Shown here: piece after piece, positions 1,726 to 58,500 of the stretch
Layout of the letters: each line of letters opens with the position of its first letter
Numbering within the stretch: position 1 is the stretch's first letter
Assembly (NCBI GenBank): GCA_040954595.2
Contig: CM082577.2
Span: 8,891,846 to 8,955,845 of the forward strand
Reading direction: 5' to 3'
DNA: 64,000 bases
DNA from: Balanoglossus misakiensis
Taxonomy: Eukaryota; Animalia; Hemichordata
Translations under genes and position numbers: made by a program
The notes under the pieces: generated by a model
What the model was told of the DNA's origin: nothing
The model's database searches: none
The model's input: only the letters and a program-made list of their open reading frames with translations

Positions 1726-1731
1726 TTTATT
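1726..1731 (-). terminator. Candidate polyadenylation signal of the RING/TRAF-zinc-finger gene
   Basis: AATAAA on - (tttatt on +), about 140 nt downstream of the stop codon at 1871-1873. Confidence 0.5.
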
Positions 1732-1870: not shown

Positions 1871-1936
1871 TTACGCCACATGCCATCCAACCAGACACCC
1901 TGGTTTGTTGTCAAGAACGCCGCAAGTCATGCACGT
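1871..1936 (-). CDS. RING/TRAF-zf gene, last coding exon (TCMTCGVLDNKPGCLVGWHVA*)
   Basis: Acceptor ttttcttctatacgcttccacAG, phase 0. 21 codons plus TAA supply the CxxC...GCxxGxH half of the zinc finger begun in the large exon. Confidence 0.85.
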   Translation of the reverse strand, partial: TCMTCGVLDNKPGCLVGWHVA

Positions 1937-2090: not shown

Positions 2091-2093
2091 TCC
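2091..2093 (-). CDS. RING/TRAF-zf gene, 3-nt microexon (GGA, Gly)
   Basis: - strand reads tgtttgtttgttttgcttttc...catactcAG|GGA|GTAAGT. Confidence 0.8.
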
Positions 2094-2367
2094 CTGAGTA
2101 TGTCATCGTTGAGTGAAACGGCACATGAAAAGCAAAACAAACAAACATAGAATATGTAAATTCATCCAGTCATGGGGACATTTTTTGCAGCTCTTATTTG
2201 ATTTAAATAACCATGATTCTTTGTCATTTCATTTATCATCATCCTCATCGCTCTTCATGCTATATGACGTAGGATGCACGGGAACTGGAATATTGTTTCA
2301 TTGTTTAATAAATATAAATGCAACAGGCTTTCGACTGAAAGTTAAACAATCCGTTTGTAAAACTTAC

Positions 2368-2370
2368 CCC
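2368..2370 (-). CDS. RING/TRAF-zf gene, 3-nt microexon (GGG, Gly)
   Basis: - strand reads ttttctttcctttctcttcc...gtaattcAG|GGG|GTAAGT. Confidence 0.8.
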
Positions 2371-2820
2371 CTGAATTACAATTCACCCGAAGAATATGGA
2401 AGAGAAAGGAAAGAAAATAGTTAAATCAATGAAACTAAAATTTCCCTTGCATTTTATAAAAGTAGTCCCCCCTCCCCAATTTTGCAAAACATCTGAAACG
2501 CAGACCTCATGGACCGCAATATTGGCTGGCGCCCTCTTTGACACACTTGTCTATTACTTTGTTTTAGCTTGATATGTGCACCAGTAATTCCGTCCCCTTG
2601 AGTTGCTAGGATTACCCCAGTTAATCCAGCGTCTCCTTTGATCCGAGCCGATCCCGCACGGCGTTCGCGGCGATCCTTGTGAAAATCCACCGCCCGAAAG
2701 CAACGGAACACACAAACGGATTAGGCACCCAGCTCATAAACTCGCGTGAAGTTAAAAATAGAAGGGAAGTGAGCACTTGTGTGGGGTTTAGCCAAGATAA
2801 TCCAACCATGGTATACTTAC

Positions 2821-2832
2821 GAAGAGTTGTAA
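2821..2832 (-). CDS. RING/TRAF-zf gene, 12-nt microexon (TTACAACTCTTC, LQLF)
   Basis: - strand reads attgacttattttgtttgctttttttcccgcc...ggcctgcAG|TTA CAA CTC TTC|GTAAGT. Confidence 0.78.
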
Positions 2833-3136
2833 CTGCAGGCCGACGGTGGTAGTGGGGACAATTTTGGTGTCGCATTATTTGGCGGGAAAAAAAGCAAACA
2901 AAATAAGTCAATGGAAGTAACATGTTGATAAATGATATTCTGCGAAGTTGCGAGACAAGAAGTCAGACCGACGACGACAACAGACAGGAAAATGTCTGTA
3001 TAGATACGATTATGGAAAACCGAGATCTCGTGACAGAAATTCACAAAGTATCCTTTAAAACGATTCTTTCACTGACGTCATCTACAAATCGCGTCCTGAA
3101 TGAGAATGATAAAACCAGAATACATGTAATACTTAC

Positions 3137-3139
3137 AAT
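3137..3139 (-). CDS. RING/TRAF-zf gene, 3-nt microexon (ATT, Ile)
   Basis: - strand reads tttttccttttttctctctccctc...catccaacAG|ATT|GTAAGT. Confidence 0.8.
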
Positions 3140-3533
3140 CTGTTGGATGTAGAAATCCGACATCGGAACACACGAGGGAGAGAGAAAAAAGGAAAAACAG
3201 GATTTACGATTGCGTAGAATATCGCTCCTGTTTTGTGACACATTCGAAGTATCCACGCGATTCGCGGTAAAATGTATGATCACACTGCATTGCATAACAT
3301 CACTCTTACATTACGAATTATTATTGGACACTCCTAATCCAATGGCTGTTCCGATATCCGTTCCACACTACACATCTGTGCTGTCTCGTTTCTAATTAAA
3401 AGTTGTAAAATCCCGAAGTTCTGTTTCTATCGATGTACTGGCAAGTAGGTATATATTTCCTCCTGTTTGTCTCATATGTTGTCTGTCTGTCTGCGCGCGT
3501 GTCTCTCTGTAATCATGTGTAAATTTCACTTAC

Positions 3534-3536
3534 CGG
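3534..3536 (-). CDS. RING/TRAF-zf gene, 3-nt microexon (CCG, Pro)
   Basis: - strand reads tctgac (branch point-like), then a long pyrimidine tract (~3570-3610), then tttcatcttggtAG|CCG|GTAAGT. Confidence 0.8.
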
Positions 3537-4219
3537 CTACCAAGATGAAAGTATTACGACGATTGACAGGGTGGGGAGAGAAAAGGGGGAAAAAGAAAAC
3601 AAAAACGAAGACAGTCAGATTTTGCTAGGCTATTGCTTTTTCGTATCATATATATTTTTTGGAACATGACAACAAAACATTGCGTTTAATTAATTTTACA
3701 CCATAGTCACCGGAATGGTGAACAGACTGAAAAGCCATTGGACACACGGCAAACTAAAATGTCACCGGGGTTCAACCGGTTCACCGTAGGCTAAAATTTG
3801 AAGCCGGGCACCTTAATTGATGCCCCCTATAAATTCCAGCGACATTTTGTTTGAACAGAGATGACCTCTTGACCCTCACCTTATAATGAGTATAACTGAA
3901 TGAGTGAGATTAGCCACGACATTGTTCTGTGCCGCGGAGTGTAATCATTTTGCCGTTAGGGTACCCTCGAACATTCTAACCACGTGACGGAGATACCCGT
4001 AGCGTTTTTGTATCAACAGTTTCCAGCTGGCGGAGGGAGGGGGGGGGGCTTTGATATCGTAGGCCTACTGAGATCCATGTCGCCGTTTGGTGTCATTGCC
4101 AATAGCAACTGCAGTTGGCTTCAAACTTGAACAGCGTTTCTTTCGTGTTTTTTTTTAAATACCATAACAGCGATTTATACGCCAAAGGTAAAATTCATGT
4201 TTTATTGCAGCTACTTTTT

Positions 4220-5854: not shown

Positions 5855-5897
5855 TTTTTTTTTTTTTTTTTTTTTTTTTTGGGGGGGGGGGGGGGGG
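5855..5897. repeat. T26-G17 homopolymer junction
   Basis: Directly visible. On the gene's sense strand it reads as a C run followed by A26, about 110-150 nt into the intron. Confidence 0.95.
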
Positions 5898-6004
5898 AGG
5901 GGAGCATCTGAGGACGCATCATACTGAATAATCGATAATAACAAAGGGTCTTGTTATTGATTTCAAAATCCTTGTAACCATAATCGGTAACGTTTCTTAC
6001 TCAC

Positions 6005-6949
6005 CCCTTTGTGCCAGGAGCACGCCTTTTCGTGATTTTTACTCTGTTTGAACTTCTTCCGGCATCTGCTGCACTGCAGCGGGTGATCTTCGGTCCTTGA
6101 CGGCGAAGGGGCCGGGAGACGCAAGGCACTGCGGGCGCTGCTTGTCTGCCGCCTGACCGGCAAGAAATCGCGACCTGTCCGTAAACCGTCGGGCTCGGTG
6201 AACGCACTCTGCGTCCGTGAAATCCCTGGCTCGCCGTTCGTAATCGCCAGCGGCCCTCCTCCGCTGCTGCTCAGTGACAGACTGTCTTCGCTGCCGTTCA
6301 TCGAGTTGGGACGCAGCCCGTACCTGGCCCTTTCGACTCTGTCGATCTCCCGATCGAAGGCGTACCTATCGTTCTGAACTTCCTTCTGGTGCCTTCTGAT
6401 GTCTTTCCTGGTCTGTATGACGCTGCGCACTCTCTCGTTGGCCAGTTTTTTGTCCATGCATTTTCTCTTCCTCTGGTGGCTAAACAACAGACAGTGGTAC
6501 GTTTTGAAACCGCAGGCTTGGCAGACTTCCCACCGATAGTCGCACCGTTCCACGTGGGCCTTCACGTCCCTGCGGAGGAATCGGAGCTTGCAGCCGCGTA
6601 GCGAGAACGGGCAGTCGACCTGCGTCAGACCGCAGTCCTTGTCCAGGTGGCGGGGCAAGTCTCTGAGCTTGCACGAACCGCCGCAGTTCTGGTTGCAGGC
6701 AATCTCCAGCGAGAGCAGCTTTTCCTGCAGGACTATCGACGGCTTGGAGAGGGTGTCTTTCAAAGCTTCGTTGCAAACCGGGCAGAAGCGAGAGCTCTCC
6801 GATTTCAGGCGCTTCCGAATGCACGCAGAACAGTAGGTGTGTAAGCAGCTCGGGAAGTTCGACACCGGGTCCAGGTAGACGCACCGGCAGATCGGGCACA
6901 GAAGCTCGGAGTCCACACTGCCGACGAAGCGGTCCACTTCTAGACCCAT
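6005..6949 (-). CDS. RING finger (C3HC4) + TRAF-type zinc finger E3 ubiquitin ligase, RNF151/RNF41(NRDP1)-like; first coding exon (315 codons; full protein about 344 aa)
   Basis: MGLEVDRFVGSVDSELLCPIC matches the RNF41/RNF151-type N-terminus (MGYD...F...VD..L.CPIC). RING: CPIC...CLHTYCSAC...CPVC. Tandem SIAH/TRAF fingers (C..NC...HL..DC; CPF..RGC...HV..C; CQAC...HQ...C) are followed by a helical segment and a Ser/Gly linker. The exon ends at CSWHKG|GTGAGT (phase 0). The ATG at 6949 has A-3/G+4 context. The upstream acceptor tattcattatgtcttacAG (exon starts 6977) makes the ORF-track Met at 6988 intronic. Confidence 0.9.
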
Positions 6950-9900
6950 ATTTTCTCCAGGCGGCACCAAACGCTCGCTGTAAGACATAATGAATACTTG
7001 TCAATTTGGGTAAAGATGAGAGGATGGCGTCGAACGCTCGGAATGTGTAAGATCACTACCGATTTACCACGGAACCTCGATTAAAATGCCAATTAAGGGA
7101 CTGACGATAATTGTCCAAGGGTGAGGGGGATTATAATAATCCTAAAAGTACCCGTACTTTGTTGGTGTCCTTGGTTTAAATAGTCACCTTTTGTTGTTTG
7201 AAAATACATGTAGTGATTTATTTCCCAGGTATCATCGTCATGAAAGCTTTTTTAAGTAGAAAGCAAATGGGAAAGGAAATCAACTAGTCTTGTGAGAAAC
7301 ATCCAAACACCAGTTCATCTCAATGTTGTGCATGTCTGGTTTGCCCGGTAGATGATCGCAACATGTCACGCGTGCTTTATTCATGTTCTCAAGTCTAGGC
7401 TCCTTTCATAAACGACAGTTATATTTACGACCTTCCCCACTGTACAGCCTAAAGATGCGTCACTCTCTGGCCTGTCAATAGTCTGTAACTTTCTACTCAT
7501 GCCCGCCCGCGGATCGTTGATGAATCCTCCCTTAAAACGAACGCAAGCTTTCAACTGCATCCTTGAAGACAACAAAACCAATTCAACAAACAAAAGAAAT
7601 GACACTGTAAATATTTCCAAACGGGATTCGTGATTCACGGAGCGGGGTATTCAATCAGACACGAATGATTTGTTGGAGTCGTCGTAATCCATGATCATTC
7701 ATGGTTCAGTTGTTTGAATTCACCCTTGCCCCTACTAGAAATACCCACGATGATGGTATGTTTGTTGGGCACACGATGGTATTAGAACTTGTGTTCACAG
7801 ACTTAAGTCTCCAAATGTGTTTGCCAGATGCAAGCTATCAGAACACATGCCTATATGTCGAACACAACACAGCAAACACCATAAGTGTACGATTAACCAT
7901 TTAACTGTTGACGGTGTAATTACATGTACACTGTCAATTGCAAACGGATGGGATTTTAAATATATTTTGTCAATCACAAGATTCCGACCACCACATGAAA
8001 AACAGAAAAACATAAATAGTGTGGTTATACATTTCCATTATTAAAGAAATAGTTATGTACTTTTGTGTGGGCGACGGTCAAAGAGAGATAACAACGCACA
8101 GGGATTATTCACACACAACTGAAGTAAAGGAGAAAAATAATCTTAAAATTTCCACGGACCAAGCGTGACCAGGCTTTGCAACTGAACTAGCTAATGTTGG
8201 CGTAAACGAGCCGAAACTAACCCGTCAGAATGTACCTTGGTAGTGAAGTGAGTGACCAGAGCATCGCGGGTGTAGAGTCCGAGAACAGAGACGACCAAGC
8301 TCTTGGAATTCCGAGGGTTCCTGGACAAAAGTCCACAAGGAGAATTGGTGAACCGGAGACAGCTACCGCGGCACAAACTCGCCACTGTGCTTCCTCGGAT
8401 TCGCAGCACCGCCTCTCAATATCGCGTTGACATATCCCAAACACGCTTCAGCGTCGTGTCCTCCGTTCTATCGGCAATTGCCAGAGAAACGACGGGGTCG
8501 TCGTGTACACGTGGACTTCAAAGTTCTATGGAGAAGACAAACGGGCGTGGTGGACGACCGAAGGCTATTCACGTGTACGACTGAGCTAATTATTCATGAA
8601 CACCTGGTCACCTAACACCTGGTCATGCAAATACAAAACTGGCTAAGTTCACCTGGTCACGCTAACAGAAGCCATAGTCGCTTGGTCAAAATACAACAAT
8701 GTCATCGTAACAGTGTTTGATTAAATGCTATGCAGTTCATTATTGTGATGCGATGATGCCGTGCGTTCGACATCAATGAAAACAAAGTCGTATTTACATC
8801 ACATATTTCAAATTTGTGTGTCTTTTTTCATCCTTAAATTAATGGGAAACTTTCGATCAATAATTCACAGCAGAAGATGGTGGCACATGGGGAATTGACA
8901 TGCGCGACTGTAATTGATTAGAAAGGAAACTATCATACGAGTCGTCCACATAAACGTTTGAAATATTCATCTCACAATTTCCTGAAACGTACAAATGGCC
9001 TTAAAGCAATTGGTGAAAGCCTTGTGTTGAATCGCGTATTTATTTTATAGCGACCATCGGAAATGAAGGGAAGTCACGGGTCTTTGAGCGTGTTTACCAA
9101 CCAATTGCCTCTTCAGTCAAATCTCGGCGAAAAAAGGAAACAGAATAGATTTCGATGCATGCATCAGTGCCAAACATTTTGTTGATTAAACCGTCCGAAA
9201 TGCCTTGAGTCGTGTTTCTACATTGAATGACGTTAAAAGCGAAATCAAATCTATCGCTCCGGCGGGAAAGTGTTTGCAGGTGGCTGCCCCGGTGACCTGT
9301 AGTGACGCATTGCAAGACCCATCACACAAAAACAGTTGCGGACAATGGATGGATGCATGAATAACGCGGCTACAGCTATAGGCCCGTGGTGTTAATAGCG
9401 CTCGACTCTGCCCGGCCGCTGATGAAATATAGCATAGTTGGGACGCAAATATTAAGTCATACTACAGCGCCTGGATACGCCGGTTGTATGAAAAGCACTC
9501 GCGGGGAAATTTATCGCCTCGGCTCATCCCCATTTAGTCAACATCCATACTCTTTTGTATTTCGATGCTATTGATTGCCATATCGTTTGGAGAGACCCGT
9601 CAGTATGCAATCGGCCGGCCGAGAGATACTAATATGCACCTTTTGTCGAAGTTGATAACGCAACGCCAGATTAAGGGCCAATTTGCCCCCGGGGTTTGCA
9701 AAGGTGAGGCAATACCTCGCGCCGCTATATCGCTTAGTTGTAAGGAAAACGGCAGCCAATAGAATCAACGTGGAAACTAGGGGCCCTCGAACGGTATCAC
9801 GGGTCGAAACTATGCGGCCACCGGCAATGTGATTGGTGTCTGTTTGATATACGTCCGCAAGAAAGATCATCACGGCTCACTGAATACACACATACATTCG

Positions 9901-10890
9901 CAAACAATCCCTCGGTGTCCCGAACGACACTGCCGGGTGAATATTCGTACCTGTCTAAACACGATACTAGTACTTATGATAATCGGCTATCAACATTTTA
10001 TATATCCATATTTATATGAACGGAGTAGCCACATTTTGTCAGTACATGTACATACATTCGGGGTCATTTTCTGTAAAATTGGCGTTTCATTGTCTGCACG
10101 TCTGCATAAATTGGCCGATGCCTTCCGTCAGCAGGGTTACAACTCAACAGGTATAACACACTGAGGTCTCCGTGTTAGCTCGAGGATTTTTCCTATAGCA
10201 TGTATTGTGTTTGCTTGGAGACACTTCTCAGCAGACCATTGTTTTTCACTGCTTGCGCGCTTTAAATATCCGAGTAGCGATTTACAAACAACGCAATAAA
10301 GACGAGCAAATACACAGCATGCCACAAGAATGTTTTTCATTGTAATTGTAAATCGGTTCATGGACCCTCGGTCAGTCTATCTCCAATATTTATTTTCTAA
10401 CCGATAGCACTTCTACGCGAAATTAATACACCTTTTTTTCTGATAACGCTCTTCTTATCTGTTTTCATCACGTCGAGTTAATTCGGGACTACACTTGAAT
10501 GTCCTAAAAGAGATATCGATTCATTTTACGAGAGTGCGGCTGTGTTTCTCAGCTTGGACTGGAGGGAGTGACGTGGTGATTTGAGATCGCAAAAGTTTGG
10601 CAGAATGACTCCGCTTACAAAATCCCGACGCAATTACACCATGATCCGTACTCGAGGTGGTATAGACAGTAATCCAGGGCGTGTCAAGTGTAGGCTATCC
10701 AGCGCCAGTTTTCAATATTAATTAAAGCCTCCACCGGTCCCAGTAACTACAGTGATCGTGCTGTGTTTTTAAATGGTTGTTGTTGTTTCTATCTTCACCC
10801 TAAACATCTGTGTCTTTTGAGGACATGCAGTACTTGTGTTCAAATCCCATACAGCTGCCCTGAAATCACTGAAATAATCGCAGAACTCAC

Positions 10891-10970
10891 CTTCAACGTC
10901 AAAACTCTCGTCCAGCAGACCCGTACGACTGCAGCGCCCTGTCCGCCATCTTGGTCGCGTATGACAACAA
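10891..10970 (-). other. Probable non-coding first exon/promoter of the RING/TRAF-zf gene (5' boundary approximate)
   Basis: Strong donor AAG|GTGAGT (10890-10885). YY1-type AAGATGGCGG motif at ~10943-10952, opening a 16-codon uORF (MADRALQSYGSAGREF*). X-box-like GTTGTCATACGCGAC at 10954-10968. Splicing to 6977 gives a 5' UTR with an in-frame stop before ATG 6949. Confidence 0.55.
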
Positions 10971-11560: not shown

Positions 11561-11807
11561 CAAAGACATCCAACCATATGCATTGAATTTTGTACGAAAT
11601 TGCCGCAGTAAAGTTTTAATTCGTTGAATTTTATCTTATTTTTTTAATGTCACATACCTTCACAACTCAGACTGTAAGTAATGTTGTGGCAATATAAATC
11701 TTATTATGTTTATCGTTTGTACTTTACAAGATTAATCTTATTATTTATAAAAATAGTGGATTAAATTTTTTAAATTTATGCCGCGAAATAACCATGATAG
11801 CCAATCA

Positions 11808-45412: not shown

Positions 45413-46225
45413 TCAAACGTGGTTCTCGTGAACGGACTCGACTGAGGTGACGCTGATTTCCTGGTCGCTCGACGACAGTTCCCCGCTGCCGCTGAAGTCA
45501 TCGTCGTCGTATATTGCTATGAGGTCGCTGAAGTCTGGCGCGGCGGACGGATGCATGATGCCGTTCTTCTTGGCCGGTGAATTCGGCTCCTTGAAGAAAC
45601 TCTTGGGCAGGTTTCGGTTCTGCCACGGGATCACCTTGTCGTGTTTCTTAAGGTCCAGTTTGATTCTCTTAATTTTCTTGTGGTGATAGGAGTTGACACT
45701 TTTTCTCTCAGAGATATGTTTGCCGATCGCAAACTCAAATAGTTCGTTGAATGGCCCCAGGCTCTTCGCTTTACCTTTCACATTATCGTGATTCGAGTTC
45801 ACCACCACTGTTCGCTTCTTATTTTTGTCAGTCTGTGCGCGGGGACGAAGTTCGTCGAGTTGGTGGTCGCCGTTCTGGGCAATTTTCAGAAGGTCTGCGT
45901 AGTAGAGTTCTCGCCCCGATTTGCCAGAAGAAAACCTGTCCTCGTAGATATTGCACGAGTCCTCGCTGTCGGACTTGCGGCCGAAGTACTTCTGTATGTC
46001 CCCGTTGACCATTTCCGCGAACGACAGGAGCTGCTGCGTGACATTCGGTCCGACGTCGACCACCGGCGTCTCCTCCTCGTAGTCGGACTCGTAGTCGTCC
46101 ATCTCGTCGTCGATGTCGCTCTCGTCGTCGCAACTGCCCTGGTCGTCCCACATCATGTTCTCCGGCTCGCGCGGCGGCATCTTCGGCAGAGCGAAGCCCC
46201 TCTTCTCCGTCAAACAACTCGACAT
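45413..46225 (-). CDS. PERCC1: PERCC1-like protein (proline and glutamate rich with coiled coil 1), 270 aa, single-exon CDS
   Basis: An acidic N-terminal tract is followed by the ordered PERCC1 motifs QLLSFAEMVNGDIQKYFGRK...CNIYED, RELYYADLLKIAQNG, LGPFNELFEFAI, IPWQNRNLPKSFFKEP and HPSAAPDFSDL, matching human PERCC1 as I recall it. The ATG at 46225 has a strong GCCGCCGCCATG context; the ORF-track start at 46294 is a GTG. Confidence 0.92.
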   Translation of the reverse strand: MSSCLTEKRGFALPKMPPREPENMMWDDQGSCDDESDIDDEMDDYESDYEEETPVVDVGPNVTQQLLSFAEMVNGDIQKYFGRKSDSEDSCNIYEDRFSSGKSGRELYYADLLKIAQNGDHQLDELRPRAQTDKNKKRTVVVNSNHDNVKGKAKSLGPFNELFEFAIGKHISERKSVNSYHHKKIKRIKLDLKKHDKVIPWQNRNLPKSFFKEPNSPAKKNGIMHPSAAPDFSDLIAIYDDDDFSGSGELSSSDQEISVTSVESVHENHV

Positions 46226-46519
46226 GGCGGCGGCTAGTAGATACGAATCGCCCCCGAGTTCATAACTCGCACCTCGAACAAGGCACGGACACACCTTCTG
46301 GTGGCAGTAGAGCTCCCTATGTGTCCGTTGGGCGGATAACGGGGCTAGACTATGATATGCGTGTCAGGGTTGAGATCCGTTGTGGACTTGTTAGCACGCT
46401 TACGGTCGATAACGCAATGCTACATGCATCAGTTGACACCGGACTTAACACGGCACTCGAAACGAAACAGCCACTCTGGTAATTTATCACCGTCGCCGTT
46501 GGTTGGAAATTTCGGTTCC

Positions 46520-55500: not shown

Positions 55501-58500
55501 TTTAAATGACTTTTCGTTTACAGAGTGTGAACGGAAGACCCGGCATAAATATATGTTTTAGAGTGCATATTGAGTGTTGAGAACTATATTTGAGGACTAA
55601 CAGTAGCCTCGTTATCACCGGACTCTTTCCTGTCTCGTTTAGCTTGCCCGAGAAACGACGGCCCTCTTTCAGTTCCCGCCTAGATTTGGTCGTCAGAAAT
55701 AGGTGACGCTTCCACTGTTAGAAATATGAACATTTTCCCACCCCCTCTCTATCAAACACTTTGCAACCTCACTTTCTTATCGGTTTTTAATACGGATCCG
55801 TTGTTTGTCCGGTTCAATTCAATTGCCGCAAACACAAATGGTTTCATTGTACCAAGACTATCGTCTAATACTTGGCTTAATATGGAGTACTCCTTGTCAG
55901 TGAGATCATAGACAGTAGAGGGGGGGGGAGATTAAAATAAGCAAAGAAATTACATGTAATCCCGCGGCAGTGCGCTCTCTCCCTCCCCCTCTCTCCCTCC
56001 AATGTTCTCCCTTCCTCCTGTCCTTGAGGTACAGTGTGTGGAATTGGCCAAATGTCGAAAATCTACCAAATGTTGCAACCGACGAAACGTGTAAAGAGAT
56101 AATAGATGTTCCAGTTAAAATTTCAAGTGGCTAACATTGAGAAGTGTTCGGTAACTTCGCCATGCTCGACAACTTTGGCGCGCCAACAAGTGTGATGGTC
56201 ATATAATCGCCCCGTAACACAATTATCGTCAGATATACAAAGAGATTAACCTTTTTCAAACGCCCCCGTCCAAATCGTTTTCATCTTCAGAAGCTTTTAC
56301 GCGTTTTTCATTTCCACTTGTGTAAAATATAAAGGCTCAATGATGTACCCTCCCCCTTCCTCCCCTTTCTTCTCTATGTTTGTCCGTCTTACTTCTAATG
56401 CTAAATACACTTATCATATCGCCACGAAAACAAGTTTTTATACTGTTAATTATGTGAAATACGTGCATATCAATTGGTATGGTGCCTAACCATAATGGAG
56501 AGGATTTTCAATGACCAAATTGATATCCGTCTTCAAATGGAGATCTCATTTCACCTTTCAAATGTGCGCAATAGGTTTTCATTGCTGCAATATATTTCGA
56601 CCACTTTTCCTATGGCACAATGAAATATCGCTTAAACTTGCTCGGGAGAACATTTCATGACATTACGTTCGCGGGCGCGAAAGACAAATGTCTGCTTTTA
56701 ATTTGCTGGACCGTGTCGTTGTCCACTGACCAGCACCTCATTGAGTAGTACGCTGACAACAATAAATTGCATGTTTATTTCTCCTCAAGACTTTGACCTT
56801 GACTGTCGATCAAACACGATTAAAGTGGCTGAAAAGTTGTTAAAAACACATCTCGAACTTTTTAATGACATGGGTAAACTTGAACCGAAGCCTTAACACG
56901 CATGTCCAAACAAGTTATGTTGCTTGGATAATCACGCCCAGTAACAGTTGACTCTTCGCGGAATATCAACAGCTTTTTGCAGTGTTGTCTTTTCTGATCA
57001 ACGTGGAAAACTTTTTTCAAGTCACTTGTTTCAGTGGCACAACGGTCTTGGTGCATGCATATGAAAGCATCACTCATAGGTCGAACGTCAACACGTCGAT
57101 CGTTTGAACGTACCTATGTGGGAGGGCGCAATAACATTCAAATCAGAGACTGTGTGGTTATTTCGCTTCAAATTTGTCTAAAAAATACCAACAAATGCCT
57201 AGTACATGTATATAATTAATACGATATGGAAAGAATGGGATTTAAAGGTCACATTGATTTTAGAGATCAATAGGACTAATTGACACACAGAGCGAAAGTA
57301 CTGAAAAGTTGCGAGTTACTCTTTTCTTGTAACATACTTTAACCATCCGTGTGCTATCCAAACCATTCTCTCCACAATCTCACAACCGGACAAATAATCA
57401 TGGCTGCCGTGATGAATACAGCGAGAGTAAGGTAGACGAATATAGGTTCTGCTAATGCCGCACTGCGCTGAAGTTCCAGCACAGTGGCAAAGGTCTTTCA
57501 CGGGATATTTTGACCTGTTGAAGATTATTACCGATTCCCAACAAGGTTCCCTCGTTGACCCCGAATAATGAATCATGGCCGAACACCCTCAGCTTAAAAA
57601 GCTTGTTGTTTACACACACGACGTGATTTATCCTCTGCTCGGCCGTTGGAGGCCACTTAGACGTACCTGGTCCGAACCACGCCATCTCCAAAAAAAGACT
57701 CGTTAAAACTCGTTTCTGAATTTATGATTTGCGAGGATTGATAACACCGGAGCCGATTTCTCCCTCAAAAGGTGTCAGTCTTGACATGAACTGGTTCTGC
57801 TATTAGAGATAATGGTGTTGTTACTAGATAAAAATTGGATATCTATTAATATAAATGTCAAATTTTGTTTCGATATTGCTACTGCTTTTTGCATGTGAAT
57901 GCGCAAGCTACGTATAGCTACGTCCCAGTGGATTCCTAATGCCTGTAAAATTGACGTCAAAATTGTTTGTGTTTGTTTTTGTCTTTTTTGTTAGGGGTAA
58001 GGGTACATTGAAATCGTATTCAAGCGTAAAATATCCAAACCAGTCATCATAAAAGTCACAGACCCTACATTGAATTAATGATGACAATATGACATGTCAC
58101 TTCTCGATCTCTCATGTTCACGCATCGTCGCCCTAACCGACACCAAAGCAAGAACTTCTGTCAACAACTACTAAGTCTCACAAGCGTGGACAAGCACAGG
58201 CTTCTATTTCCACGATGATTTTACCACTGCAGTTCCTCGAGTGAGAGACAATCTATCTGGAGTATATATGGTCCAAAAACCAGGCCCGCTGCACGGCCTA
58301 TATGGTTCTACACATTCCGGATATTCACGAGCTATGATTATCATTTTCTATGAAAAGCCACAATGTACTCATCAGTACGCATGTCCCCTTCTCCCACATA
58401 ATTCTAGACTGTTCCACGTAACGGACAAAGTGGCTGTTTGCGCAGCTGCAAAAACAATTCTATGACGTATTTCTTGCTTTCAAAAATTACATGCAAAAAA

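What the first reader, a model, noticed from the sequence alone, without database searches (positions are those of the whole stretch)
2091..3536. Chain of five consecutive microexons (3-3-12-3-3 nt), four of them single codons, builds the loop of a zinc finger
Seen in sequence: between the large exon (ends ...CSWHKG at 6005) and the last exon (starts TCMTC at 1936), the - strand has YAG|CCG|GTAAGT (3536-3534), YAG|ATT|GTAAGT (3139-3137), YAG|TTACAACTCTTC|GTAAGT (2832-2821), YAG|GGG|GTAAGT (2370-2368) and YAG|GGA|GTAAGT (2093-2091). All five donors are the perfect consensus, each has its own pyrimidine tract, and all are phase 0. The introns are 2468, 394, 304, 450, 274 and 154 nt. A YAG-NNN-GTAAGT pattern is expected about once per 10^5 positions under uniform base composition, so four within 1.45 kb on one strand is very unlikely to be chance. 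The spliced product reads HKG-P-I-LQLF-G-G-TCMTC, so 24 coding nt are spread over about 4 kb. Established: isolated 3-nt microexons occur in animals, and tandem microexon arrays are best known from Schistosoma micro-exon genes. Inference: a run of single-amino-acid exons inside a metal-binding domain is highly unusual and would be missed by ORF finders and most aligners. It could be constitutive, or it could act as a residue-by-residue tuner, giving up to 2^5 = 32 in-frame isoforms with the His-to-Cys spacing varying from 3 to 11 residues.
Basis: partly seen in the sequence, partly recalled or inferred. Interest (0 to 1): 0.95.

Follow-up and report, generated by a model that had tools for sequence, protein, structure and literature searches.

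The report
Ancient chain of one-codon exons
A zinc-finger gene of a probable acorn worm carries five tiny exon-like pieces in a row (3, 3, 12, 3 and 3 bases) that spell an eight-amino-acid loop also found in relatives from corals to amphioxus; they are likely all spliced in together rather than mixed and matched, and most public gene models of this family miss them.

Summary
The gene is a RING/TRAF zinc-finger gene whose closest relatives are hemichordate (78% to Ptychodera). Its C-terminal eight-ligand Cys/His module is CHORD-like. The five microexons spell P-I-LQLF-G-G, matching the family loop P-x-x-x-x-F-G-G. All 20 relatives' proteins that break off inside the loop do so after residue 1, 2, 6 or 7, the window's internal exon borders. 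Coral-like genomic DNA directly shows a similar chain in another register, P | VVDV | F. The '32-isoform tuner' has little support: of 34 assembly-derived (Logan) proteins reaching the last exon, 32 carry the whole loop, 2 are shorter, none skips all five. No RNA run of this species was available, so inclusion here is inferred. Only 8 of 42 NCBI models with the motif are complete. Runs of codon-sized exons are in print for truffle nank genes, and this scan noted such chains on other DNA. I found no report of one conserved across animal phyla. New variant of a known kind.

The parts
6005..6988 (-). Large coding exon, 328 codons from ATG 6988 (family-conserved Met at 6949); ends in phase 0 after the His-Lys-Gly of the zinc module; donor GTGAGT at 6004
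   Evidence: homologues break or splice at the same place
6773..6898 (-). RING finger (residues 31-72)
   Evidence: Pfam zf-RING_UBOX 30.5 bits (cut-off 25.2), zf-C3HC4 24.8 (cut-off 21)
6581..6709 (-). TRAF-type zinc finger (residues 94-136)
   Evidence: Pfam zf-TRAF 31.8 bits (cut-off 27)
6005..6073 (-). First half of the CHORD-like module (Cys306, Cys309, Cys323, His326)
   Evidence: sequence; family profile hits RAR1 CHORD2
3537..3624 (-). AG-free zone with displaced pyrimidine tract before microexon 1
   Evidence: 86 nt, 20 of 20 pyrimidines ending 36 nt from the exon
3534..3536 (-). Microexon 1, 3 nt, Pro (loop residue 1)
   Evidence: the same 3-nt Pro exon in L005, L010, L012; 11 relatives break after Pro
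3140..3224 (-). AG-free zone with displaced pyrimidine tract before microexon 2
   Evidence: 83 nt, 20 of 20 pyrimidines
3137..3139 (-). Microexon 2, 3 nt, Ile (loop residue 2)
   Evidence: P0012 and P0098 break after residue 2
2833..2939 (-). AG-free zone with displaced pyrimidine tract before microexon 3
   Evidence: 105 nt, 18 of 20 pyrimidines
2821..2832 (-). Microexon 3, 12 nt, Leu-Gln-Leu-Phe (loop residues 3-6)
   Evidence: sea-urchin P0020 and P0067 break after residue 6
2371..2434 (-). AG-free zone with displaced pyrimidine tract before microexon 4
   Evidence: 62 nt, 20 of 20 pyrimidines
2368..2370 (-). Microexon 4, 3 nt, Gly (loop residue 7)
   Evidence: oyster-cluster P0038 and P0115 break after residue 7
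2094..2190 (-). AG-free zone with displaced pyrimidine tract before microexon 5
   Evidence: 95 nt, 16 of 20 pyrimidines
2091..2093 (-). Microexon 5, 3 nt, Gly (loop residue 8)
   Evidence: gene models P0021 and P0130 place the last exon's start directly after this position
1871..1936 (-). Coding part of the last exon, 21 codons plus TAA; second half of the zinc module (Cys-x2-Cys, Cys, His)
   Evidence: matches the family tail in alignment A4
1726..1731 (-). Candidate polyadenylation signal AATAAA, 140 nt after the stop
   Evidence: motif only

Best explanation
Five microexon-like pieces with perfect donors lie between the large and the last exon of a RING/TRAF zinc-finger gene and spell the family's conserved eight-residue loop; they are likely all spliced in together in the normal mRNA, completing a predicted two-zinc CHORD-like module. 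Shown: the splice signals, the match of the eight codons to the family loop, matching break points in other bilaterians, and a similar chain in coral-like DNA. Inferred mechanism: each exon is too short for exon definition, so it relies on a perfect U1 site and on a branch point/pyrimidine tract set 27-51 nt back from the only AG nearby. Introns would be removed one after another, and oyster-cluster contigs that end at successive donors show that upstream-first intermediates can form. Inferred reason for persistence: the chain is older than the coral-bilaterian split and is kept mainly by selection on the protein loop, as skipping would remove invariant residues between two predicted ligands of the same zinc ion. 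It is probably not a diversity generator and probably does not need the neuronal eMIC/SRRM4 programme.
For: (1) Signals far beyond chance. (2) The eight codons give P, F, G, G at the four positions invariant in 12 of 12 distinct full linkers (about 8e-6 by codon counts). The all-included product scores best of 32 patterns against a profile that holds no window sequence (97.7 bits, next 90.7). (3) 20 of 20 proteins that stop inside the loop stop after residue 1 (11), 2 (2), 6 (2) or 7 (5); 71 more stop after residue 0. (4) One oyster lineage shows breaks after residues 0, 1, 2 and 7 as well as the full form. (5) Genomic loci L005, L010, L012 (L010 64% identical to Montipora, 33% to the window protein) hold a 3-nt Pro exon; L012 also holds 12-nt and 3-nt exons spelling the next five residues of the coral loop, with the same architecture. 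(6) 32 of 34 Logan proteins reaching the last exon are full (161 of 164 contigs). (7) In RAR1 CHORD2 the equivalent His and Cys bind one zinc (PMC2935968 passages). (8) eMIC is described as bilaterian (PMC8797185 passages), yet coral-like loci have the chain.
Against: No transcript of this species or of any hemichordate shows the spliced form; all 4 hemichordate models stop at the large exon. That the Logan contigs come from RNA is inferred from their length and content; run types were not shown. Cluster listings show at most 15 members each (15 of 205 for the largest). Two coral-cluster proteins lack part of the linker (P0066 four residues, P0065 one), so skipping does occur. Downstream-first intermediates cannot be seen in protein data, so splicing order is not established; most SRRM4-dependent microexons splice downstream-first (PMC10250204 passages). 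The exon layout differs between coral-like DNA and this gene (only borders 0, 1 and 6 are shown shared), so part of the chain may have arisen separately. The AlphaFold model is weak (mean pLDDT 64, loop under 50); fold searches gave E 2.6 to CHORD and no VIA hit.
Confidence: 0.78

Rival explanations
1. The chain is a conserved all-or-none splicing checkpoint: slow, stepwise removal of six introns decides whether a full ligase or a truncated RING/TRAF protein without the second half of the zinc module is made, so intron detention regulates the gene by tissue, stage or stress.
For: Intermediates ending at successive donors are abundant enough to enter RefSeq models and Logan contigs (20 proteins). 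Detained introns are enriched around plant microexons (PMC8831610 passages). Read-through of intron 1 here gives a short 13-residue tail and a stop. Several borders have persisted from coral-like DNA to hemichordates.
Against: Such intermediates are expected from any slow splicing, and spliced aligners can place only reads that run into an intron, so models are biased to them. Many read-through proteins are simply genomic DNA. Complete models in amphioxus (7 of 7) and Lingula (1 of 1) may mean that these lineages do without the introns (not tested).
Confidence: 0.1
2. Combinatorial tuner: independent skipping yields up to 24 proteins with His-to-Cys spacing of 3-11 residues, as in truffle nank genes or schistosome MEGs.
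For: All exons are phase 0. P0066 lacks exactly the 12-nt exon of the coral layout and P0065 one residue. Truffle nank genes are reported to diversify this way (PMC4986451 passages).
Against: 161 of 164 contigs are full; no Logan all-skipped form (0 of 34; the two all-skipped proteins are genome-based gene models); loop length and P, F, G, G are fixed across phyla; the introns are not copies of each other, so no expanding cassette.
Confidence: 0.07
3. Neuron-specific block: the five exons are eMIC/SRRM4-dependent neural microexons, included together in neurons and skipped together elsewhere.
For: Strong donors, long AG-free zones and distant pyrimidine tracts are the published architecture of such exons.
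Against: UGC within 45 nt of the acceptor in only 2 of 5, against 74-79% of SRRM4-dependent exons; no all-skipped contig; chain present in coral-like loci although eMIC is described as bilaterian.
Confidence: 0.04
4. The matches are chance or dead relics and the gene ends by reading into intron 1 or joining 6005 to 1936.
For: RefSeq models of Ptychodera and Saccoglossus read through the donor.
Against: as above; the read-through tails share no sequence between species.
Confidence: 0.01

Closest known systems
[quoted passage not shown] 2012; seen only as cited in passages of PMC4986451)
   Same: Several one-codon exons in one gene.
   Different: Fungal, expanded paralogous family, described as diversifying by alternative splicing. 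Here: an animal gene, fixed loop length and sequence, non-repetitive introns, conserved across phyla.
Schistosoma micro-exon genes (MEGs; PMC10526429 passages)
   Same: Runs of short exons, mostly multiples of three.
   Different: MEGs have 10-20 exons of 6-81 bp making secreted variable proteins. Here 24 of 1074 coding nt, four exons of 3 nt, inside a conserved intracellular-type zinc module.
SRRM3/4 (eMIC)-dependent neural microexons (10.1101/2024.09.17.613571 and PMC8797185 passages; PMC12871342 abstract)
   Same: Strong 5' splice site, long AG-free zone, pyrimidine tract far from the AG.
   Different: Those are tissue-switched cassettes, mostly UGC-marked and poorly conserved between phyla. 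Here five in series, UGC at 2 of 5, mostly included, present in coral-like DNA.
Short runs of microexons: RPS24 trio of 3, 18, 22 bp (search listing and abstract starts); plant peptidase M1 adjacent 5- and 12-nt exons (PMC8831610, PMC11096116 passages); single 3-nt exons of Ncam and Drosophila troponin T (PMC8042270 passages)
   Same: Ultra-short exons, some adjacent, often missed by annotation; the plant pair is conserved and arose by gain of introns.
   Different: At most two or three in series and at most one 3-nt exon; here five in series with four single codons.
CHORD domain (Pfam PF04968; RAR1 2xcm, CHORDC1 2yrt)
   Same: Eight Cys/His ligands in the same order; profile hit E 7e-5 and 0.003; the microexon loop aligns with the CHORD segment between His181 and Cys196.
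   Different: Shorter; Cys-x2-Cys replaces Cys-Cys; lacks the His188/Asp189 pair that touches Hsp90-bound ADP; single, not tandem; fused to RING/TRAF.

Membership tests
Microexon (internal exon of 30 nt or less) | Length and canonical AG/GT borders | tested here: met
Microexon (internal exon of 30 nt or less) | Present in spliced RNA of this species | not testable with these tools
   no run was listed; inferred from relatives
eMIC/SRRM4-dependent neural microexon | Strong donor, long AG-free zone, distant pyrimidine tract | tested here: met
eMIC/SRRM4-dependent neural microexon | UGC between branch point and AG | tested here: inconclusive
   2 of 5 within 45 nt; the motif is not strictly required
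eMIC/SRRM4-dependent neural microexon | Skipped outside neurons; dependent on eMIC | not testable with these tools
   no tissue data; 0 of 34 Logan proteins skip all
eMIC/SRRM4-dependent neural microexon | Origin within Bilateria | tested here: not met
   chain in loci whose closest named relatives are Montipora proteins; eMIC origin from PMC8797185
Schistosome MEG | Coding region made mostly of 10-20 very short exons | tested here: not met
   24 of 1074 coding nt, five exons
Schistosome MEG | N-terminal signal peptide | not tested
   no predictor run; the N-terminus carries a RING finger from residue 31
Schistosome MEG | Many isoforms by exon skipping | tested here: inconclusive
   2 of 34 shorter forms in relatives; rare variants are not visible
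Truffle nank-type codon-exon diversifier | Multiple codon-sized exons | tested here: met
   four 3-nt exons
Truffle nank-type codon-exon diversifier | NACHT-ankyrin protein in an expanded family | tested here: not met
   RING/TRAF protein; tree broadly follows animal groups
CHORD domain | Eight conserved Cys/His zinc ligands in order | tested here: met
   C7 C10 C24 H27 C39 C42 C51 H56 invariant in 14 of 14; aligned to RAR1
CHORD domain | Invariant His188 (and Asp/Glu189) in the loop | tested here: not met
   loop is P-x-x-x-x-F-G-G against PMC2935968
CHORD domain | Tandem pair of domains | tested here: not met
   one module per protein
CHORD domain | CHORD fold and Pfam membership | tested here: inconclusive
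   Pfam CHORD 5 of 14 members, best E 0.034; Foldseek top hit 2xcm, E 2.6; no VIA hit; model pLDDT 64
RING/TRAF-finger E3 ligases | RING finger followed by TRAF-type zinc finger | tested here: met
RING/TRAF-finger E3 ligases | Ubiquitin ligase activity | not testable with these tools
   inferred from the domain

The most novel reading that the evidence does not exclude
The last common ancestor of corals and bilaterians already spelled this zinc-module loop almost codon by codon (introns after residues 0, 1, 2, 5, 6, 7, 8 and 9, with different ones lost in each lineage), and the chain has been kept as an eMIC-independent splicing checkpoint that gates completion of the ligase's partner-binding domain: an older microexon-inclusion system than the neuronal one.
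Probability: 0.2. Interest if true: 0.9.

Novelty: new variant of a known kind. Interest (0 to 1): 0.74.

Why it matters
It gives a natural, multi-species case of four single-codon exons spliced in series in animals, with transcript-type and genomic support from relatives. That makes open questions testable: how the spliceosome handles back-to-back 3-nt exons, in what order, and whether any factor other than eMIC/SRRM4 promotes them, since coral-like genomes have the chain. The different registers in coral-like DNA (3-12-3) and in this gene (3-3-12-3-3) are a rare record of intron gain or loss within one 27-nt stretch. Practically, 34 of 42 NCBI models of this family examined lack the complete loop, which hides a conserved CHORD-like domain and suggests that other gene ends are mis-annotated in the same way.

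Tried and rejected
No whole genome is held for this window. RNA search: no RNA holder was listed, so no reads were laid; this is no evidence either way. A region search with residues 278-328 found only P0001. ESM Atlas gave generic RING/TRAF clusters and sub-0.9 leads including CHORD and BTK. The search for related loci: alignment A3 had no conserved stretch, and P0119 gave 30 pattern matches with none confirmed. The degenerate DNA scan gave 14 loci: 8 coral-like, 2 of a more distant paralogue (L009, L011), 4 apparently unrelated (L002, L003, L004, L007; short or dissimilar upstream frames, dropped). Of the 8 coral-like loci, 3 showed microexons; the other 5 hold only 337-2261 nt after the donor and showed none. 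Tandem duplication of an intron-plus-codon cassette was rejected: no similarity above 17 nt among the six introns. Zero-length recursive sites (YAG|GTAAGT) were rejected: 0 in the window. No intron similarity between window and coral-like loci. The careful tree did not finish; the quick tree was used. I did not fold a skip form, as the full-form model was already unsure in the loop, and sent no complex job. Literature: ten searches; one search was swamped by an over-general term; one search gave 0 papers; none was by gene name. Searches of earlier scan notes by place and by sequence were blank.

Full report
Observation. Five GTAAGT in 4068 nt compare with 0.49 expected (P 1.6e-4), and all five have YAG at 3 or 12 nt. 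Of 107 microexon-shaped candidates in the window they rank 1, 2, 3, 4 and 7 by pyrimidine tract and AG-free zone. Only 50 of 3081 YAG sites have an AG-free zone of 60 nt or more with 16 of 20 pyrimidines, and all five do. The tracts end 27-51 nt before the exon. This layout (strong donor, distant tract, long AG-free zone) is the published architecture of microexons (passages of 10.1101/2024.09.17.613571; PMC8797185; abstract of PMC12871342).

The gene. The large exon encodes 328 residues with a RING and a TRAF-type zinc finger. The three hits of the first search are hemichordate proteins at 61-77% identity, and the window protein groups with Ptychodera (78%) in the quick tree, so the host is probably an acorn worm. 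All four hemichordate models end or diverge right after WH[KR]G. A profile search of 1.84 billion representatives gave 41 proteins. With a second profile search (28 hits) and three cluster look-ups (at most 15 members listed per cluster) the set reached 158 proteins. Named members come from amphioxus, Lingula, nemerteans, bivalves, gastropods, an annelid, sea urchin, an acoel and Montipora corals. Their automatic names (NRDP1-like, RNF151-like, PDZRN3-like, TRAF-like) only reflect the RING/TRAF part.

The loop is real protein. 139 of the 158 proteins have the first half of the C-terminal motif; 19 lack it and were dropped. Forty continue through a nine-residue linker to the second half. In the 12 distinct linkers, residues 1, 6, 7 and 8 are always P, F, G, G. 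The window's microexons give P-I-LQLF-G-G, and the last exon adds T. Fitting the four fixed residues by chance is about 8e-6. Against a profile of 14 relatives without window sequence, the all-included product scores best of the 32 patterns (97.7 bits; next 90.7; all skipped 57.5), and the 32 patterns give only 24 proteins.

The exon borders are shared. A GT donor read in frame gives Val. Seventy-one proteins turn to Val right after WHxG. Twenty others run partly into the loop and then diverge: after residue 1 (11 proteins: oysters, mussels, scallop, abalone, Solemya, Tubulanus), residue 2 (abalone P0012, oyster-cluster P0098), residue 6 (sea urchin P0020, P0067) or residue 7 (oyster-cluster P0038, P0115; three acoel-cluster proteins with Ala-Ser, perhaps a GC donor). 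These are the window's four internal borders. My classifier looked for these positions only, but the three unclassified tails (P0002, P0018, P0053) do not begin with loop residues, so no break after residue 3, 4 or 5 was missed. Two genome-based models (P0021, P0130) join Gly straight to Thr-Cys, which marks the last border. Oyster clusters alone show breaks at 0, 1, 2 and 7 and the full form. P0093, P0098 and P0115 are de novo contigs, so molecules with upstream introns removed and the next intron kept probably exist; their RNA origin is inferred.

Direct DNA evidence. A degenerate scan of metagenome contigs gave 14 loci, 8 of them coral-like (L010 64% and L013 66% to Montipora P0054, 32-33% to the window protein). 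L005, L010 and L012 have CAG | Pro codon | GTAAGT 1.2-3.9 kb after the donor. L012 goes on with a 12-nt exon (Val-Val-Asp-Val) and a 3-nt exon (Phe), with AG-free zones of 82-120 nt and tracts 36-48 nt back, then the contig ends. These spell the first six residues of the coral-cluster loop. So the coral-like layout is 3-12-3, with borders after residues 0, 1, 5 and 6, while the window is 3-3-12-3-3, with borders after 0, 1, 2, 6, 7 and 8. The frameshifted tail of Montipora model P0053 has Ser-Val where a contiguous Met-Cys would give Cys-Val, implying an AG directly before the Cys codon, and P0065 lacks just that Met. A further one-codon exon in corals is thus likely but not shown. Either an ancestor with more introns lost different ones in each lineage, or introns were gained separately around shared ones.

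Included together or mixed? Of 34 Logan-derived proteins that reach the last exon, 32 are full (161 contigs by the counts), P0066 lacks the four residues of the coral 12-nt exon (1 contig), P0065 lacks one residue (2 contigs), and none skips all. Skipping happens but looks minor. Limits: contigs drop rare variants, listings are partial, tissues are unknown, and no RNA run was listed for this species. UGC lies within 45 nt of the acceptor at 2 of 5 exons. eMIC is described as a bilaterian invention whose targets are little shared between phyla, whereas this chain is in coral-like DNA. The introns are not copies of one another.

The domain. A profile of 14 full modules hits RAR1 CHORD2 (E 7e-5) and CHORDC1 (E 0.003) first among solved structures. 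Pfam CHORD is matched weakly by 5 of 14. In RAR1 one zinc is held by His181 and Cys196/197/213, and the loop between them carries His188/Asp189 that contact Hsp90-bound ADP (PMC2935968 passages). The loop lacks His188/Asp189, the module is single, and Cys-x2-Cys replaces Cys-Cys: it may work like a compact CHORD (a two-zinc binding module) but is not filed as one. The AlphaFold model of the amphioxus module is weak; Foldseek ranks 2xcm first at E 2.6 and VIA finds nothing. E3 ligase activity and a partner-binding role of the loop are inferences.

Annotation. Of 42 NCBI models with the motif, 8 are complete (7 amphioxus, 1 Lingula), 31 are truncated or mis-joined, 2 skip the loop and 1 (acoel) has an eight-residue linker. 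Whether amphioxus and Lingula lost these introns or were annotated from transcripts I could not test.

What is known. Single 3-nt exons (Ncam, fly troponin T), adjacent pairs in plants, the RPS24 trio (listing), MEGs and alternatively spliced codon-sized exons in truffle nank genes (as cited in PMC4986451; the original paper was not seen) are in print. Ten searches (none by gene name; open-access library only; no supplements read, and microexon catalogues in supplements could list an orthologue) showed no report of this chain or of a comparable one conserved across animal phyla. Unchecked notes of this scan describe similar or longer chains on other DNA, one in a CHORD-like loop of a protist; they are leads only.

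Verdict. A real feature; a new variant of a known kind. Most likely a very old, jointly included chain of ultra-short exons encoding a fixed loop (0.78). A regulated checkpoint (0.10), a tuner (0.07), a neuronal block (0.04) or an artefact (0.01) are less likely. Interest 0.74.

Noticed in passing
window 11671-11673 (+): Isolated CAG | 3 nt | GTAAGT with a T-rich tract and a 55-nt AG-free zone; the one other such match in the window (0.48 expected by chance), possibly a microexon of a plus-strand gene.
   Followed up: partly
window 45413-46363 (-): Single long ORF of 316 codons with a Pfam TEADIR3 (omega loop) hit, 26.5 bits at cut-off 26; FAM181-like by recall.
   Followed up: partly
window 10891-10960 (-): ATG in a good context opening a 16-codon frame that stops just before a GTGAGT donor at 10890; may be a 5' non-coding exon with an upstream ORF, of this gene or another.
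   Followed up: no
window 57995-57996 (+): Long U-rich tract, TAG, 2 nt, then GTAAGG: a possible 2-nt exon or an acceptor with a nearby cryptic donor.
   Followed up: no
L009 59-93 (+) and L011 685-719 (-): A more distant paralogue (best match P0037): L011 has an intron after WHEG, and L009 reads as the spliced form joined to a long unrelated terminal exon whose first codons (Val-Val) faintly recall the coral 12-nt exon.
   Followed up: partly
proteins P0023, P0153, P0157, P0158 (acoel cluster): Linker one residue shorter in the gene model and Ala-Ser read-through after residue 7, which may mean a GC donor and a missed 3-nt exon.
   Followed up: partly
window 5855-5905 (-), intron 1: A run of about 20 C followed by about 26 A, flanked by an inverted repeat; possibly a small mobile-element remnant.
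   Followed up: no
proteins P0005, P0045-P0050, P0010: All amphioxus and Lingula models have the complete loop, unlike other NCBI models; these lineages may have lost the introns.
   Followed up: no
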